A program made the position numbers and the translations under genes. From a virus (Duplodnaviria; Caudoviricetes), in the IMG/VR virus record IMGVR_UViG_3300025280_000165, positions 1-24,219 of that record: a DNA stretch of 24,219 nucleotides; one strand, written 5' to 3'. Below, piece by piece: positions 6,197 through 23,078 of the stretch (its first letter is position 1; every line of letters starts with the position of its first letter). The notes below the pieces were generated by a model, which saw only the letters and a list, made by a program, of their open reading frames with translations, was not told where the DNA came from and made no database searches.

Positions 6197-7738
6197 CTAA
6201 GTTCTCCAATATGCAACCCTTTGTTGCTTTCTTGGTTCATCTTCCCATTGAGGATCTTCTGGATGTGTTACATGCCATGATTCTCTTAGGAAATGTATAG
6301 CCATTGTCAAGGCATCTACCTGATCATCATGGGCTGCATTGGGAAACTGTATCAGTTCTTCTATAAGATCAGCAGCCCACTTCTTATGTACAGGTATCCA
6401 AACCTTTCCTGCTTCCATCATGGGAGAAGCTGCATATACCCTGCTGACTTTATCCCTATCTGGAAGATATTCTCTTATAGGTAGGCCACTTCTTCTCATA
6501 TCCTGTATGAGTGACTGACCACTTGCCTTCTTCTCTATAATACATACATCTGGTTTAAACTGATCGTACAACATTTGTGATATTCTACGTAGTTCTGGAT
6601 ATTCAAAGCGACCTTTAAGATTACCAAGAAGAATCAGATTGGATACATAAGATTCTCGTCCGTCTTCCTCCTCATCAAACATGGAGAATATACCCCATGT
6701 CTGTATTACACTAAAGTCTGCCGTAGTTCGAGTGGAAAAGGCCGTATCATATGTTTGCAGGATAAAGTCACATGTTGGTGGATCTTCGTATTCCCACTCT
6801 CGTATCCATTTCTTCTTTATCAGTCCACCTTCTTCTGGAGTTGGATCTTGCATGTACAATGCATTCCAGTATCGTGCTCCATTCGAGGCTTTAATCTCAT
6901 TCTCATCAATTTGTAATACTTCTTTGGGCTTCCATTCGGGAAAATAGGAAGAACCCACTGGTAGCTCTAAAAGTTCTGCCGCTTCATCATCTAACCATGC
7001 AGGTATTCGTACAACTTCCCAAGGTAGAGTCTCATATTCACTCATTTCCTCTTGTTGTTTTAGCAACCAGCCACATAAATCATCGAAATGATACCTTGTA
7101 TTAATGATGAGTATGGAACCATTGGGCATTATACGTGTACGTAGGCCAGCAGGATACCATTCTTTGACATATCTACGGCCAGCTTCGGAATATGAGTCCT
7201 CTTCGGACATCACATCGTCCAATATGGCTATATTAGCCCCTCGTCCTGCAATCTGACTACGGACCCCGGCTGCGTAATAGGTGCCATTCTGGTTTGTTTT
7301 CCACTTTCCTGCTGCTCTAACGTCCGTCCGTAACGAAACTCCTTTAAATATCTCCTGAAACTGTTCAGAGTTAACAACGTCACGAACAGAACGGCCAAAA
7401 TCACTAGAAAGTTGATCACTGTGAGAAACAGTAAGAATTTCATGTTCTGGATTTCTCCCTATATACCATGCTGGAAACAATTTGGAACAGATAACAGACT
7501 TGGAACTCCGTGGTGGTAGGAATACCATCAGCCTTTTTATCTCTCCAGCCTCTAATTGTCTTAATTTATTGGAAATTACCTCTATATGCTTACCCATCTT
7601 CCAATCGGAGACAAGCATCGGGGCCATTAAACGGACAAATGACAGGAAATCATCTTTAGTTTCCTGTAGTACACTTAGATTTAATAGACCTTGAAGGTTA
7701 ACATACGGAGATACAATAGAATCTTCTTGTAAATTCAT
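6197..7738 (-). CDS. terL: Terminase large subunit
   Basis: Walker A-like PPRSSKS, Walker B AILDD, NTRYHFDDL coupling motif, ALYMQDP linker, RNase H-like nuclease motifs YDTAFS, IEKKASG and HDDQVDA. Confidence 0.95.
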   Translation of the reverse strand: MNLQEDSIVSPYVNLQGLLNLSVLQETKDDFLSFVRLMAPMLVSDWKMGKHIEVISNKLRQLEAGEIKRLMVFLPPRSSKSVICSKLFPAWYIGRNPEHEILTVSHSDQLSSDFGRSVRDVVNSEQFQEIFKGVSLRTDVRAAGKWKTNQNGTYYAAGVRSQIAGRGANIAILDDVMSEEDSYSEAGRRYVKEWYPAGLRTRIMPNGSILIINTRYHFDDLCGWLLKQQEEMSEYETLPWEVVRIPAWLDDEAAELLELPVGSSYFPEWKPKEVLQIDENEIKASNGARYWNALYMQDPTPEEGGLIKKKWIREWEYEDPPTCDFILQTYDTAFSTRTTADFSVIQTWGIFSMFDEEEDGRESYVSNLILLGNLKGRFEYPELRRISQMLYDQFKPDVCIIEKKASGQSLIQDMRRSGLPIREYLPDRDKVSRVYAASPMMEAGKVWIPVHKKWAADLIEELIQFPNAAHDDQVDALTMAIHFLRESWHVTHPEDPQWEDEPRKQQRVAYWRT

Positions 7739-7822
7739 TATTAGCTCTAAAAAAATAATAAAAAATAAAAAATATTCAAATAAGTTTTAATAATTTTAGT
7801 TGATCTACTTATTTTATATATA

Positions 7823-7851
7823 ATTATACAACAAAAGTGGTGAACATCCAA
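7823..7851 (-). promoter_or_regulatory. Putative sigma70-type promoter for the packaging/head arm
   Basis: Minus strand TTGGAT (7851-7846), 17 nt, TATAAT (7828-7823), in an AT-rich tract upstream of terL. Confidence 0.55.
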
Positions 7852-8095
7852 ATGATTTTTACTATGACCCTGTAATTTTAGGTAAATATGTGGCACCCCA
7901 TTCTATATATATGATCAAGCCAGCCATTTTTCCCTCCCCCTCCCCATTTTTGGCTGTTTTGCTTGCTTTTTGGGGCAAAATGATACCTTGGTGATATCCC
8001 TAGGTTTTCTCATGGTTTATATGTCTGTTTAGTGGGTTTTCCCTAGGTTTTCTGCCGTTTTTGGACCTTGGTTGACGATGAAGGTCGATGAAGAT

Positions 8096-8250
8096 TTAGA
8101 AACCCTAGACTCCTCCTTCGGAGTCGTAGGGTTTCTTAGGCTGCAAATTCCACAGCAAATTTTCATTTCATTTTTCACATCGTTGCAAGGTGAAATCGAA
8201 AATCAATTAGAAACCCTAGACTCCTCCTTCGGAGTCGTAGGGTTTCTTAG
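8096..8250. repeat. Exact 44-bp direct repeat (8096-8139 and 8207-8250), each copy a hairpin
   Basis: TTAGAAACCCTAGACTCCTCCTTCGGAGTCGTAGGGTTTCTTAG twice, 111 bp apart; AGAAACCCTAGACTCC pairs with GGAGTC(G)TAGGGTTTCT; both copies are followed by AATTCCACAGCAA. Confidence 0.95.
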
Positions 8251-8288
8251 CCTACGAATTCCACAGCAACCAATTCCGGTTGTTGAAC

Positions 8289-8312
8289 CTAGCTACCAGC
8301 AATGGTAGTTAG
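8289..8312 (+). promoter_or_regulatory. GNRA-capped stem-loop in the leader of the first early gene
   Basis: CTAGCTACCA-GCAA-TGGTAGTTAG: 10-bp stem with one G-U pair and a GCAA tetraloop. Confidence 0.6.
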
Positions 8313-8348
8313 CCGTTGTTGGTGGCACTTGATCGAAAGGATCAAAAA

Positions 8349-8684
8349 ATGACCACAAAACAACAAGTTACCGACTTAGCCAAGATCGTTCTTGGACTAG
8401 CCAATCAGGTCGAAGAACTCACCAATCAGGTGAAAAACGACCAACCAACCAAGGCTAAAAAGTCTCGGAAAACGGCGGCTAGAGCCACGAAAGCACCTGC
8501 AAAAAAGCAGGTAACTCGTTGGTTTAAGCAAGGTAAAAATGGCAAGTGGACCGAAACCAAGGATGGATCTAGGGTTCAATTCCAAAAAGACAAGGAAGCC
8601 CTAGTCCCTCTGGCCATGTTCAACTCCAAAACTGGAGAATTGAAAGCATGGAACTCTGACGGTGACGTTTCATTGCCAGTATAG
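8349..8684 (+). CDS. First early protein; coiled coil, Lys/Ala-rich linker, small C-terminal domain
   Basis: Start revised to ATG 8349 (AAGGA RBS); KAKKSRKTAARATKAPAKK linker. Confidence 0.8.
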   Translation: MTTKQQVTDLAKIVLGLANQVEELTNQVKNDQPTKAKKSRKTAARATKAPAKKQVTRWFKQGKNGKWTETKDGSRVQFQKDKEALVPLAMFNSKTGELKAWNSDGDVSLPV

Positions 8685-8693
8685 CTAGGTTAA

Positions 8694-8816
8694 GCCATGA
8701 GGGGGGCTATCAAGCCCCCCGATTGGTTTCTATAAGCCCTATCCGTAGGGTTTATAAAAACCAATTGAGGTTTATCGAATAGGTCTATCATGGCCTATAA
8801 TGGCCCTATCATGGGC
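8694..8816 (+). repeat. Structured intergenic cassette, copy A
   Basis: Four consecutive hairpins (8701-8720, 8722-8765, 8779-8798, 8803-8816); homologous to 9982-10081. Confidence 0.9.
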
Positions 8817-8840
8817 TAACAATCAGCAAGGGAGTTTATT

Positions 8841-9038
8841 GTGACTATCAAGCTGAAAAACTGTGGTAATGCCTTCTTTCTATCAGGCAAGCAAGGCAAC
8901 GCCGACAAAGACTGCAAGCCTGTAGGCCGTAGACAAAAACGGCAAGCAAGCAAGCTCTTAAGGCAAATAAGCAGCGAGGAAGCCATTAAGATATTAAATG
9001 ATGAGACTTACTGGCAGCAGGAAGGAATGAACCAATGA
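8841..9038 (+). CDS. Hypothetical basic early protein
   Basis: GTG start with AAGGGAG RBS; ATGA coupling to the next ORF. Confidence 0.7.
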   Translation: MTIKLKNCGNAFFLSGKQGNADKDCKPVGRRQKRQASKLLRQISSEEAIKILNDETYWQQEGMNQ

Positions 9039-9115
9039 CAGGCATCATATGGTTAGATGTAGCTATAGGACTAGGTTGTGCTATAGTCATGGTTGCTTTA
9101 TTTTATACAGATTAA
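9035..9115 (+). CDS. Unannotated 26-aa putative membrane peptide
   Basis: MTGIIWLDVAIGLGCAIVMVALFYTD; AAGGA RBS, ATGA overlap with the upstream stop. Confidence 0.55.
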   Translation: MTGIIWLDVAIGLGCAIVMVALFYTD

Positions 9116-9228
9116 TTCCTCTTTAGCGTAGGGGCTAGGCAAGTTAGTCTAGCCTCTTTCTAAGTAGGAATTAGCACACAACGTGCTGATAATGACCTTA
9201 TCATAGGTCACTACGGGCTATCATGCCC
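9113..9228 (+). promoter_or_regulatory. Structured intergenic cassette B (long stem plus three short hairpins)
   Basis: 24-bp interrupted stem 9113-9173; AGCAC-acaac-GTGCT; TGACCT-TATCAT-AGGTCA (9193-9210); GGGC-TATCAT-GCCC (9215-9228); then AAGGAG RBS. Confidence 0.85.
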
Positions 9229-9244
9229 AGAAAGGAGCATCCTT

Positions 9245-9421
9245 GTGGCATCAACCATAAAGGAAGCAATGGCTAATGCTGAACAGCATAAGCAAAATAC
9301 CGAAGAAGTGCTGGACCTTATAGAAGAAGGTGCAGCTAAAATATCCCTAGGCAAGGGAGACTATGTTGAAGTCTCCATAAGCCCTAGCGGTAGAGTTAAA
9401 TTTAACATAGTAGATAAATGA
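9245..9421 (+). CDS. Unannotated 58-aa hypothetical protein
   Basis: GTG start after AAGGAG; MASTIKEAMANAEQHKQNTEEVLDLIEEGAAKISLGKGDYVEVSISPSGRVKFNIVDK; ATGA coupling to the 9418 ORF. Confidence 0.75.
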   Translation: MASTIKEAMANAEQHKQNTEEVLDLIEEGAAKISLGKGDYVEVSISPSGRVKFNIVDK

Positions 9422-9723
9422 AAACTCTCTTTGGTACACCAGTAAATCCTTTGGTATTAGAGGTATCAAAGGACCACCCATTGCACGTTAGCAATCTCAA
9501 GGAATGGTACGATCATGCTAAAGAACAGGCAAGGCAGTGTCGTTCCATGATAAGACTTGCTAAGAAGCAAGGGGATAAACGTGCTACGGATAAGCACATA
9601 ACCAACCTATATAGCCATAAAGGATATATGAAAAGTATCCGTCAGTATGTCAAGTATGGCACATGGGTCGATAACTTTTGGGGTAAAGACCAAGAGTTTC
9701 GAGTAACTTGGAGGACGTTATGA
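9418..9723 (+). CDS. Hypothetical early protein
   Basis: 101 aa with ATGA coupling at both ends. Confidence 0.75.
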   Translation: MKTLFGTPVNPLVLEVSKDHPLHVSNLKEWYDHAKEQARQCRSMIRLAKKQGDKRATDKHITNLYSHKGYMKSIRQYVKYGTWVDNFWGKDQEFRVTWRTL

Positions 9724-9968
9724 AGTGGATGAGAGTTAATTTCTCCCGTTGGTATAAGTATCCTGAAGGAGATTCTCACTTAGAAAACTCCAAATATTAT
9801 ACAGTAGCTTGTCATAATAGATCTCAAGCTATCACCAAGGCTCATGCTTTGGCAGTTAAGGATAACTTTGGATCTAAAACTTTCAAGTATTTGCTTACAC
9901 ACATACTGAATATGCAATCAAGCTACGATGTTCATGTTACAGTGGAAGGAGATGTAATGGTAAACTAA
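9720..9968 (+). CDS. Hypothetical early protein
   Basis: Start revised to ATG 9720 (GGAGG RBS, ATGA overlap). Confidence 0.7.
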   Translation: MKWMRVNFSRWYKYPEGDSHLENSKYYTVACHNRSQAITKAHALAVKDNFGSKTFKYLLTHILNMQSSYDVHVTVEGDVMVN

Positions 9969-9981
9969 TATCTCTTGATAG

Positions 9982-10102
9982 GCCAGTTGGGGGCTAACAA
10001 CCCCCGATTGGTTTATATAAGCCTAATTGGGTTTATATAAACCAATTATGGTTTACAGAATAGGTCTTACTATAGACCTATGGGTGGCACACCCACTGTG
10101 CT
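9982..10102 (+). repeat. Structured intergenic cassette, copy C
   Basis: Hairpins 9989-10005, 10007-10046, 10060-10081 (loop TACTAT) and 10086-10102; homologous to 8694-8798. Confidence 0.9.
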
Positions 10103-11355: not shown

Positions 11356-11422
11356 CGTAGTATGTTTGCCGTTTATCATAGCGGTAGGTATGTTTATCCA
11401 TCATCAACTAACAGAAAGGTAA
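11324..11422 (+). CDS. Unannotated 32-aa putative membrane peptide
   Basis: AGGAG 7 nt before the ATG; MVVALSLIICSVVCLPFIIAVGMFIHHQLTER fills the gap before the 11428 gene. Confidence 0.55.
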   Translation: MVVALSLIICSVVCLPFIIAVGMFIHHQLTER

Positions 11423-11427
11423 TAAAT

Positions 11428-11616
11428 ATGAAACTATTTGGATATAAATTTCACGGTCGTATTCGTAAACCTAATGCACATCAAGTGCGAAAGGGAGTAA
11501 GGGATAATAACCCTAGCTTCTTCTACAAAGGAACCACCATTAATGCGGAGGGAGTAGTAGGTAAACGGTACGATATAGGAAGATTATATCTTCACGTTGC
11601 CAATTACGACAGGTAA
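11428..11616 (+). CDS. Hypothetical basic protein
   Basis: Start revised to ATG 11428 (AAGGT RBS). Confidence 0.7.
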   Translation: MKLFGYKFHGRIRKPNAHQVRKGVRDNNPSFFYKGTTINAEGVVGKRYDIGRLYLHVANYDR

Positions 11617-11625
11617 TGTTATAAT
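11597..11625 (+). promoter_or_regulatory. Strong sigma70-type promoter
   Basis: TTGCCA (11597-11602), 17 nt, TATAAT (11620-11625), with extended -10 TG at 11617-11618. Confidence 0.75.
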
Positions 11626-11634
11626 ATAACCTAT

Positions 11635-11669
11635 GGGATGGGTGGTATAATCACCATCCATCCCTTTTT
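11635..11669 (+). terminator. Terminator-like hairpin
   Basis: GGGATGGGTGGT-ATAATC-ACCATCCATCCC (12 bp, one G-U) followed by TTTTT. Confidence 0.65.
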
Positions 11670-11683
11670 ATTGGAGAAAAATT

Positions 11684-18705: not shown

Positions 18706-19165
18706 GAAATTTGATAGAGAATTATATAATGTATCGGATACTCTTACAAAAGGGGTGATGGGTACATGGTTAGAAGAAGAAGGATATACATCTATAAATG
18801 ATAAAGAAAATTATGGAGTAGATATATCTTGTGAGAAAAATAAAACTAAATATTATTTTGAAACAGAGGTGAAGTATGGTTGGAAAGATAAGTGGCCTGA
18901 TACATGGAAAGAAGTTCGTATTCCCTATCGAAAGAAAAAGATTATAGATAAATGGATAAGGGAAGGAGCAGATGGATATTTAACTTTCGTAATATTTAGA
19001 AAGGATTGTAAACAGGCTTGGTTTATAGATGGTCATGTGGTAAACGTAAGCGAAGTTCGTTCTATTAATAATAGATATGTATCAGATGAAAAGTTCTATC
19101 ACATTAATATAGACGATGCTACATTAAAGGATATGGAAAATGGATCTAGTATCAGTAACAACTGA
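18695..19165 (+). CDS. PD-(D/E)XK-type nuclease-fold protein
   Basis: YGVD...FETEVK catalytic pattern; AGGAG RBS. Confidence 0.65.
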   Translation: MGTKKFDRELYNVSDTLTKGVMGTWLEEEGYTSINDKENYGVDISCEKNKTKYYFETEVKYGWKDKWPDTWKEVRIPYRKKKIIDKWIREGADGYLTFVIFRKDCKQAWFIDGHVVNVSEVRSINNRYVSDEKFYHINIDDATLKDMENGSSISNN

Positions 19166-19463
19166 GGCCAATAATCATCTATCAGATATTGTTAGCTCAG
19201 AGAATGCAATAGGTATAGAGCTTGGTGTTAAAGGTGGTGGTTGTGCTGGCTTTACATATCAATGGGATGTTTTGTTTGACATACCAGATCAACATGATAT
19301 AATTCCACTTAAGAAAGGTAAGTTATATATTAAGAAAGATGCAGGGGTTCTAATGATAAATACAACTATAGACTTTTCAAAGGGTATTAATGGTAACTAT
19401 ATTGTATTTAAAAATCCTAATGCTACATCTCAATGTGGATGTGGAGAAAGTTTTGGGATATGA
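19140..19463 (+). CDS. iscA: A-type Fe-S cluster carrier (HesB/IscA/ErpA family)
   Basis: GVKGGGCAGFTY and NPNATSQCGCGESF signatures with all three Cys intact. Confidence 0.95.
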   Translation: MDLVSVTTEANNHLSDIVSSENAIGIELGVKGGGCAGFTYQWDVLFDIPDQHDIIPLKKGKLYIKKDAGVLMINTTIDFSKGINGNYIVFKNPNATSQCGCGESFGI

Positions 19464-22647: not shown

Positions 22648-23078
22648 ATCATCATTGGCTAAAGTTTGGTAGTCGTAAAAAGTTTAAGCCGAATGTAGAT
22701 AAATTCGGATTTGTCTATGTAATTACTAATCGTCAAACAGGTAAAGCATACATAGGATGTAAACAGTATATGGTTAAAGGTAAGTTTGGAGATAAACAAT
22801 CTAACTGGAAAACATATACTGGTTCATCCAAATGGTTGAATGAAGATATAGATAAAATAGGAAAGAAAAAATTTAAGTTTGAAATCATAGCTGAATATAA
22901 AAATAGACGTAGCCTTAGATATTATGAACTATACTATCAGATGAAGTATAATGTTCTAGCTACTACGCTAGAAGGAACAGATGAACCAGCTTACTATAAT
23001 TCAAGAGTAGGTGGTAAGTTCTATCGTCCGGTTGAAAGTTATAAAGATCCAGAAAATGTACAAACCAAAGAAAAATGA
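22641..23078 (+). CDS. GIY-YIG family endonuclease
   Basis: GFVYVITN...YIGCK, YTGSS, FKFEII, ELYYQ and YYN motifs; no C-terminal DNA-binding repeats. Confidence 0.85.
   Translation: MVDHHWLKFGSRKKFKPNVDKFGFVYVITNRQTGKAYIGCKQYMVKGKFGDKQSNWKTYTGSSKWLNEDIDKIGKKKFKFEIIAEYKNRRSLRYYELYYQMKYNVLATTLEGTDEPAYYNSRVGGKFYRPVESYKDPENVQTKEK

What the first reader, a model, noticed from the sequence alone, without database searches (positions are those of the whole stretch)
8701..10081. Family of hairpins with fully covarying stems and a conserved TATCAT loop ahead of early-gene RBSs: candidate undescribed regulatory system
Seen: ATAGGTC-TATCAT-GGCCTAT (8779-8798) with GCCC-TATCAT-GGGC (8803-8816), and TGACCT-TATCAT-AGGTCA (9193-9210) with GGGC-TATCAT-GCCC (9215-9228). 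Between the two loci the stem arms are swapped while the loop keeps its orientation, so this is neither simple duplication nor inversion. Loop spacing is kept at 21 and 20 nt, and each pair lies just 5' of an RBS. Variants: GGGGGGC-TATCAA-GCCCCCC (8701), GGGGG-cTAACAA-CCCCC (9989), ATAGGTCT-TACTAT-AGACCTAT (10060). The one non-Watson-Crick pair in these stems is G-U on the plus strand, pointing to RNA or ssDNA. Inference, two models: (a) tandem UAUCAU RNA loops bound by a dimeric protein that controls translation or antitermination, as CsrA does with paired GGA loops; (b) cruciform-displayed -10-like hexamers (TATCAT, TACTAT fit TAnnnT) acting as hairpin promoters or sigma decoys, since no good -35/-10 pair is seen here. 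I do not recognise this as a known Rfam motif.
Basis: partly seen in the sequence, partly recalled or inferred. Interest (0 to 1): 0.85.

Follow-up and report, generated by a model that had tools for sequence, protein, structure and literature searches.

The report
Fixed-loop RNA hairpins before phage genes
An uncultured marine phage and its close relatives put a small hairpin with a changing stem but a nearly fixed six-letter loop just ahead of the start of several early genes; it likely folds in the messenger RNA and is likely read by a still unidentified protein that would switch those genes down, and it matches no RNA family in Rfam.

Summary
The hairpins are real: five TATCAT-loop stems on one strand, against at most two same-loop stems in 150 shuffles. 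They belong to a larger cassette repeated between early genes of a marine podovirus lineage: stop codon, long stem, A-rich hairpin, one or two UAUCAU-type hairpins, RBS. Relatives down to about 30% protein identity keep the loop while stems change in pairs (10 different 4-bp stems; 15 of 31 cassette pairs change on both sides). 58 G-U cells against 0 A-C point to sense-strand RNA. The promoter/cruciform model is not supported: no -35, no TG, weak DNA stems, and a canonical conserved promoter lies elsewhere. Genes are gained and lost at the cassettes. Best reading (inferred): a protein-read translational operator, like Aca2 or CsrA hairpins, behind a likely RNase III site. No binder, host or RNA data were found. 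No Rfam match; the alignments of one large phage-RNA catalogue could not be read. The scan has noted fixed-loop hairpins before early genes in other phages, with other loops. Verdict: new variant of a known kind, lineage-restricted, function untested.

The parts
6197..7738 (-). terminase large subunit; genes diverge from the 7740-8340 region
   Evidence: PHROG 38; 42% to HTVC027P terL
8349..8684 (+). first early gene, 111 aa, lineage-restricted; predicted N-terminal helix, basic linker, small alpha/beta domain; candidate reader (untested); has no fixed-loop hairpin in its own leader
8691..8774 (+). module A junction: outer helix 8691-8696/8769-8774 enclosing an A-rich-loop hairpin (8701-8720) and a long stem of about 21 bp (8721-8767)
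8779..8798 (+). fixed-loop hairpin (TATCAT), one G-U that is A-U in L082
8801..8818 (+). fixed-loop hairpin (TATCAT), ends 22 nt before GTG 8841; RBS 8828-8834
8841..9115 (+). two small ORFs (8841-9038, 65 aa; 9035-9115, 26 aa hydrophobic)
9114..9172 (+). module B long stem P1 with internal loops, candidate RNase III site (inferred)
9171..9189 (+). module B A-rich-loop hairpin Ha
9193..9210 (+). fixed-loop hairpin (TATCAT); closing pair T-A here, C-G in L082 and L317
9215..9228 (+). fixed-loop hairpin (TATCAT), ends 16 nt before GTG 9245; RBS 9231-9237
9245..9968 (+). three small ORFs (9245-9421, 9418-9723, 9720-9968), no family match
9979..10055 (+). module C junction, duplicate of module A (A-rich hairpin 9989-10005, long stem 10006-10047)
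10060..10081 (+). fixed-loop hairpin variant (TACTAT), 42 nt before ATG 10124
10086..10102 (+). third hairpin type (5-nt pyrimidine-rich loop) kept before homologues of the 10124 gene
11359..11394 (+). sixth fixed-loop hairpin (TATCAT) on a long G-U-rich stem, 33 nt before ATG 11428; three stem changes in L317 all keep pairing
11597..11670 (+). canonical sigma70-type promoter (extended -10 at 11617-11625) followed by a leader hairpin (11635-11664); reference for what a real promoter looks like here

Best explanation
A small hairpin with a varying stem and a nearly fixed UAUCAU loop is repeated just before the ribosome-binding sites of early genes in this phage lineage; it likely folds in the early mRNA and is likely bound at its loop by one protein, probably phage-encoded, which would block ribosome loading and so turn these genes down together. 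Shown: the cassette (stop codon, long stem P1, A-rich hairpin Ha, one or two fixed-loop hairpins, RBS), its covariation, its sense-strand G-U bias, its position, and gene turnover at cassettes.
For: Loop kept, stems changed: 17 distinct 18-mers with 10 distinct inner 4-bp stems; loop T1 and A2 in 17 of 17, A5 and T6 in 16 of 17 (sites were picked for stems of 4 or more, so pairing there is by construction). Test without that selection, window against L082, L317, L318: 8 stem changes, 6 keep pairing (5 via G-U, 1 double change), 2 break only the outermost pair, 0 loop changes. 17 aligned cassettes: 94.9% of cells paired against 84.8% shuffled, 15 of 31 pairs changed on both sides, 0 of 500 shuffles as high, slid controls 32-52%. 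58 G-U cells and no A-C among 27 unpaired cells. Sense strand folds better in 15 of 15 cassettes; last stem ends 11-22 nt before the start codon in 13 of 15. The apical loop of P1 varies freely in the same cassettes. Precedent: Aca2 binds two 5' UTR hairpins and represses translation, and the Aca1 motif ends about 20 nt before the start codon (PMC13551039, passages).
Against: No reader identified: the first gene has no family or fold match and its co-occurrence with the hairpin may be shared ancestry only. No HTH or RHH match in the early proteins scanned. Two of six window sites lie 33 and 42 nt from the start codon. Most cassettes carry one hairpin, not a pair. The sequences are related and the structure was derived from the same alignment; the count of further pair types was below the shuffles (32 against 36). 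A U-U first mismatch and copying between cassettes could hold part of the loop constant without a protein.
Confidence: 0.42

Rival explanations
1. Processing and stability only: RNase III would cut P1, and the small hairpins would shield the new 5' ends; the loop stays similar through hairpin stability and copying between cassettes, with no specific reader.
For: P1 has 19 consensus pairs, lies between stop codon and next RBS and has no U-tract; T7 R1.1 is such a site between early genes (PMC6121014, passages); distant relatives carry long repeated stems before RBSs without the small hairpins; identical hairpin copies occur within genomes.
Against: Stems have turned over by paired changes while loop positions 1, 2, 5, 6 hardly changed, and the P1 loop next to it varies.
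Confidence: 0.22
2. The loop is read by a protein or by the host ribosome (for example S1) to enhance translation or protect the RNA rather than to repress.
For: Same covariation data; the first gene lacks the hairpin, as expected if its product activates later genes; RBS regions are mostly predicted open.
Against: Stems ending 11-14 nt before the start codon (7 of 15) would lie under the initiating ribosome (footprint recalled), which fits repression better.
Confidence: 0.15
3. nut/boxB-like antitermination: the loops load a factor that lets host RNA polymerase read through early terminators.
For: GC-rich short stems with a lineage-specific loop recall lambdoid boxB (recalled); terminator-like sites at 11635 and 13775; basic stretches in the 8349 and 8841 products.
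Against: Sites repeat before each RBS, not once behind a promoter; no boxA-like motif was tested; the 11635 hairpin follows its own promoter and lacks a U-tract in most relatives.
Confidence: 0.09
4. The loop is a -10 element shown on a DNA hairpin or cruciform, or an RNA mimic of -10, acting as promoter or sigma70 decoy.
For: Loop keeps T1, A2, T6 like TAnnnT, and the 3' arm has G at its second base in 15 of 17, like a discriminator; a purine often stands 7 nt behind the loop.
Against: No -35 enrichment, no TG; loop position 4 is always C or T, never the consensus A; 58 G-U cells would be A-C on the other cruciform arm; DNA stems weak; the real promoter is canonical; N4 promoters have a 3-base loop and need a virion RNA polymerase (PMC4496689, passages).
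Confidence: 0.08

Closest known systems
Aca2 and Aca1 RNA motifs in acr-aca 5' UTRs (PMC13551039, passages read)
   Same: Short covarying hairpins, single or paired, ending about 20 nt before the start codon of early phage genes, also between genes
   Different: No Aca, HTH or RHH match, no acr match tested, no operator over a promoter at each site; here joined to a long stem and an A-rich hairpin; motif sequences could not be compared (figures not held)
PeSL cassettes of T4-type phages (PMC2839356, passages; PMC4122927, abstract)
   Same: Repeated intergenic cassette flanking small variable ORFs that are gained and lost between relatives
   Different: No sigma70 promoter in the cassette, no U-tract terminator, three hairpins and a fixed loop
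T7 early RNase III sites such as R1.1 (PMC6121014, passages)
   Same: Long stem with internal loops between early genes
   Different: Cleavage untested; T7 sites are not known to me to carry a fixed-loop hairpin before the RBS (recalled)
CsrA/RsmA sites (search listing and abstract starts)
   Same: Sequence-specific loop on a hairpin near the RBS
   Different: Loop has no GGA; restricted to one phage lineage
MS2 translational operator (PMC13720505, passages; ANYA named in 10.1101/137877, one passage)
   Same: Inner four loop bases are AUCA, AUUA, AAUA or ACUA, i.e. ANYA, in 16 of 17 distinct hairpins
   Different: Six-base loop with a U-U (once U-C) mismatch, no bulged A, DNA phage
N4 virion RNA polymerase hairpin promoters (PMC4496689, passages)
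   Same: Short stem with variable pairs and conserved loop in the early region
   Different: 6-base loop, G-U pairs on the sense strand, no polymerase found

Membership tests
Rfam families | match at gathering score | tested here: not met
   0 matches at E<=5 in the window; 9 and 8 weak matches, all below gathering
Aca RNA motifs | covarying hairpin ending about 20 nt before an early start codon | tested here: met
   11-22 nt in 13 of 15 cassettes; covariation
Aca RNA motifs | co-encoded HTH or RHH Aca protein | tested here: inconclusive
   no such match among early proteins in PHROGs, Pfam, NCBIfam; only the first gene was folded
Aca RNA motifs | hairpin directly behind a TSS with a DNA operator on the promoter | tested here: not met
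   cassettes follow stop codons and hold no promoter signal
Aca RNA motifs | protein binding and repression | not testable with these tools
   needs EMSA and reporters
PeSL | repeat flanking variable small ORFs | tested here: met
PeSL | consensus sigma70 promoter in the repeat | tested here: not met
PeSL | terminator activity of the stem-loop | tested here: inconclusive
   only 8701 flagged, with a broken T-run; activity untested
T7-type RNase III site | duplex of about 20 bp between early cistrons | tested here: met
   19 consensus pairs in P1
T7-type RNase III site | cleavage by RNase III | not testable with these tools
   no RNA reads
CsrA site | GGA in the loop | tested here: not met
MS2 operator | ANYA tetraloop plus bulged A | tested here: not met
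   ANYA core present but in a hexaloop; stems unbulged
N4 hairpin promoter | 3-base loop | tested here: not met
   6-base loop
N4 hairpin promoter | phage RNA polymerase | tested here: inconclusive
   PF00940 in 0 of 4 records, but the control rang nowhere; longest ORF seen in the structural arm 1042 aa
lambdoid nut site | boxA next to the hairpin and an N-like protein | not tested
   comparison recalled only

The most novel reading that the evidence does not exclude
Each lineage of this marine phage group writes its own loop code (UAUCAU here, UGUAAAAG in a sister lineage) into mobile RNA cassettes that cut, tag and shuffle early genes, and the code is read by a new family of dimeric RNA-binding proteins, here the 111-aa first gene, so that any gene dropped between two cassettes falls at once under the phage's post-transcriptional control.
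Probability: 0.17. Interest if true: 0.8.

Novelty: new variant of a known kind. Interest (0 to 1): 0.52.

Why it matters
Phages without their own RNA polymerase must time a fast-changing set of early genes. A cassette that joins a likely processing stem, a protein-read tag and a recombination junction would let new genes be added already regulated. It would extend the Aca2 principle beyond anti-CRISPR operons, and the short motif with natural compensatory variants makes a direct test easy and could give an orthogonal RNA-protein pair.

Tried and rejected
Rfam: no match. Pattern scans for single hairpins gave mostly unrelated matches: 120 loci, 7, 27; only records of this lineage showed protein homology; L207 is inside a coding region. 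No RNA holder listed; the one DNA run laid gave contigs only. No terminase relative in prokaryote genomes, so no host hint. RNA polymerase search inconclusive. First-gene product: no match in PDB or BFVD at E<=0.001, best VIA Z 4.2, atlas scores under 0.8. A screen for long stems did not separate real from shuffled sequence (4-21 against 6-16 per region) and is not used. The bridging hairpin at 8792-8805 is not a conserved switch: it is broken in L082. A TACTAC-loop stem at 22961 lies in a coding region and is treated as doubtful. Kissing of the loop with start codons or with the conserved motif at 7982 was considered and dropped, because loop variants do not pair. Literature: no relevant paper among the 15 of 26 listed for UAUCAU + hairpin + loop + phage; one paper for the early-region RNase III search (listing only). 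In PMC10690425 the readable supplements held no match, but the alignment archives could not be read, so the motif may be among its unnamed candidates. No look-alike earlier finding by place or sequence.

Full report
Context. The window is part of a tailed phage: portal and terminase on the minus strand, then small early ORFs, primase-helicase, family A DNA polymerase, gp2.5-like SSB and Cas4-like nuclease on the plus strand. The nearest cultured phages are distant: terminase 42% to Pelagibacter phage HTVC027P, polymerase 45% to HTVC103P/104P/115P. Near-complete relatives are 58-60 kb. No RNA polymerase was seen, but that search was inconclusive. The host is unknown.

Observation. Every quoted hairpin is present at the stated place. 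A further TATCAT hairpin lies at 11359-11394. Five same-loop hairpins on one strand compare with at most two in 150 shuffles of the window. The three modules fold with z of -5.5 to -5.9. The pattern was not found in 23.6 kb of the same phage's structural arm; one doubtful stem lies at 22961.

Relatives. Eighty loci found through the terminase (77-100% identity) and eighty through a small early protein showed the TATCAT hairpins only in records of this phage, in L082 (95%) and in L214 (31% in that protein). A metagenome scan gave 13 loci: 2 identical to the window, L317 (96%), L318 (81%) and L319-L327 (27-45%). In these a cassette is repeated between early genes: stop codon, long stem P1, A-rich hairpin Ha, one or two fixed-loop hairpins Hb, RBS, start codon; L321 has four cassettes and L327 three full ones and a partial one. 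Window module B (9113-9247) is such a cassette. Modules A and C are duplicates of each other with a different 5' part, a predicted three-way junction, followed by Hb. A covariance model of the cassette hit only the window and loci of this lineage among 69 sources, and the Hb pattern occurred twice in 656,850 bases of 105 partly overlapping regions from more distant relatives. The element is therefore lineage-restricted.

Covariation. From the list I took 31 sites, leaving out duplicate records, identical copies in close relatives, the bridging TATAAT/TACAAT stems and a TAATGG stem. They give 17 distinct 18-mers with 10 distinct inner 4-bp stems; loops are TATCAT (12), TATCAC, TATTAT, TAATAT, TAATGT and TACTAT. 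Those sites were selected for pairing. The unselected test is the comparison of six window sites with their positions in L082, L317 and L318: 8 stem changes, 6 keeping the pair, 2 breaking only the outermost pair, none in a loop. On 17 aligned cassettes, 15 of 31 pairs change on both sides and 94.9% of cells pair (84.8% shuffled; 0 of 500 as high; slid controls 32-52%), while the number of further pair types was lower than in shuffles. The rows are related and the structure came from the same alignment, so these are not probabilities. In the same cassettes the P1 apical loop varies in length and sequence and the Ha loop is only A-rich. Selection on the Hb loop sequence is the simplest reading (inference).

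RNA or DNA. The consensus structure holds 58 G-U cells and no A-C among 27 unpaired cells (the folding program favours G-U, so this is biased). The sense strand folds better than the antisense strand in 15 of 15 cassettes, by 8.1 kcal/mol on average. Five of six pair-keeping changes among close relatives run through G-U. As DNA the hairpins give -0.9 to -4.4 kcal/mol, as RNA -6.0 to -9.6. This favours sense-strand RNA; single-stranded DNA is not excluded. No RNA run was listed.

Promoter model. For it: T1, A2 and T6 are the best kept loop bases, and G follows at the second base of the 3' arm in 15 of 17. Against it: the best -35 match averages 2.84 of 6 against 2.92 in background, 0 of 19 loops have the extended -10 TG, and position 4 is never A. 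The phage group has an ordinary promoter, TG-N-TATAAT at 11617-11625, seen in the same context in 16 of 25 distinct rows and followed by a leader hairpin with a variable loop. N4 hairpin promoters have a 3-base loop and need the virion polymerase (PMC4496689, passages).

Arm swap. The swap needs no special mechanism: between two tandem copies the 3' arm, a six-base AT-rich linker and the next 5' arm form the swapped hairpin, as seen in L321 and at 8792-8805. A register shift after duplication could give it (inference). The bridging form is broken in L082.

Gene turnover. Between the first gene and the 9418 homologue, relatives differ in ORFs, each preceded by a cassette; two ORFs found only in L321 and two found only in L327, among the ten loci compared, have Hb on both sides. 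This matches the PeSL pattern (PMC2839356, passages; PMC4122927, abstract), but the cassette holds no promoter.

Mechanism. The last stem ends 11-22 nt before the start codon in 13 of 15 cassettes, 33 and 42 nt in the other two. A protein on the loop would overlap the initiating ribosome (footprint recalled). Aca2 represses translation through two 5' UTR hairpins, the Aca1 motif ends about 20 nt before the start codon, and such motifs also lie between genes; Aca1 showed binding but no silencing (PMC13551039, passages). I commit to a protein-read translational operator at 0.42. P1, with 19 consensus pairs and no U-tract, resembles T7 early RNase III sites (PMC6121014, passages); cutting is inferred. 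The first early gene is the candidate reader only by position, lineage restriction (6 proteins; 6 clusters) and a predicted helix-linker-domain build (mean pLDDT 69); it has no family or fold match. A sister lineage has its own repeated hairpin with a TGTAAAAG loop before RBSs, in some records before a T-run instead, which hints at a group-wide principle with different codes.

Novelty. No Rfam family matches. The paper searches showed no description of this motif in the rows listed; the alignments of the largest phage-RNA catalogue could not be read, and most subscription papers are not searched. It fails membership of PeSL, CsrA, MS2-operator and N4-promoter classes on defining features and is undecided for Aca. 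The scan has noted fixed-loop hairpins before early genes, and hairpin cassettes at gene junctions, in unrelated phages (unchecked notes, one of which gave me the Aca lead). Verdict: a real, lineage-restricted, uncatalogued-in-Rfam RNA cassette, a new variant of known kinds, function untested; interest 0.52.

Noticed in passing
window 7982-7989: The 8-mer GATACCTT is invariant 226-439 nt upstream of the terminase match in most relatives while its flanks have diverged (regex hit in 51 of 54 loci, four of them off-position); candidate packaging, origin or promoter site of the whole group.
   Followed up: partly
window 8085-8158 and 8196-8269: Duplicated long hairpin before the first gene; L082 has wholly different sequences at both places that still form hairpins, and the AATTCC loop at 8272 is kept with a changed stem.
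   Followed up: partly
window 11597-11670: Conserved extended -10 promoter at the end of a small ORF, followed by a leader hairpin; in this phage the loop holds a second TG-N-TATAAT and a T-run follows.
   Followed up: partly
window 10086-10102; L320 652-696 and 1063-1113: A second, shorter cassette type (hairpin with 5-nt pyrimidine loop, then an RBS-containing hairpin in relatives) repeated before variable genes.
   Followed up: no
L076, L078, L080, first 4.5 kb upstream of terminase: TCGGG-N5-CCCGA repeated five to six times with the spacer in both orientations, operator-like.
   Followed up: no
L061, L063, L072, L075, L077, about 1000-1300 nt upstream of terminase: Hairpin with TGTAAAAG loop and covarying G/C stem before RBSs, twice in some records.
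   Followed up: partly
L004, L033, L041, L044 early regions: Long stems with genome-specific apical sequences repeated three to five times before RBSs.
   Followed up: partly
L002, 90-310: 20-nt tandem array of about 12 units just upstream of the terminase gene.
   Followed up: no
window 19140-19463 and 1751-2173: IscA/SufA-like Fe-S assembly gene and GroES-like gene carried by the phage.
   Followed up: no
window 22954-22973: Perfect 7-bp stem with TACTAC loop inside the GIY-YIG-like ORF; doubtful member of the family.
   Followed up: no
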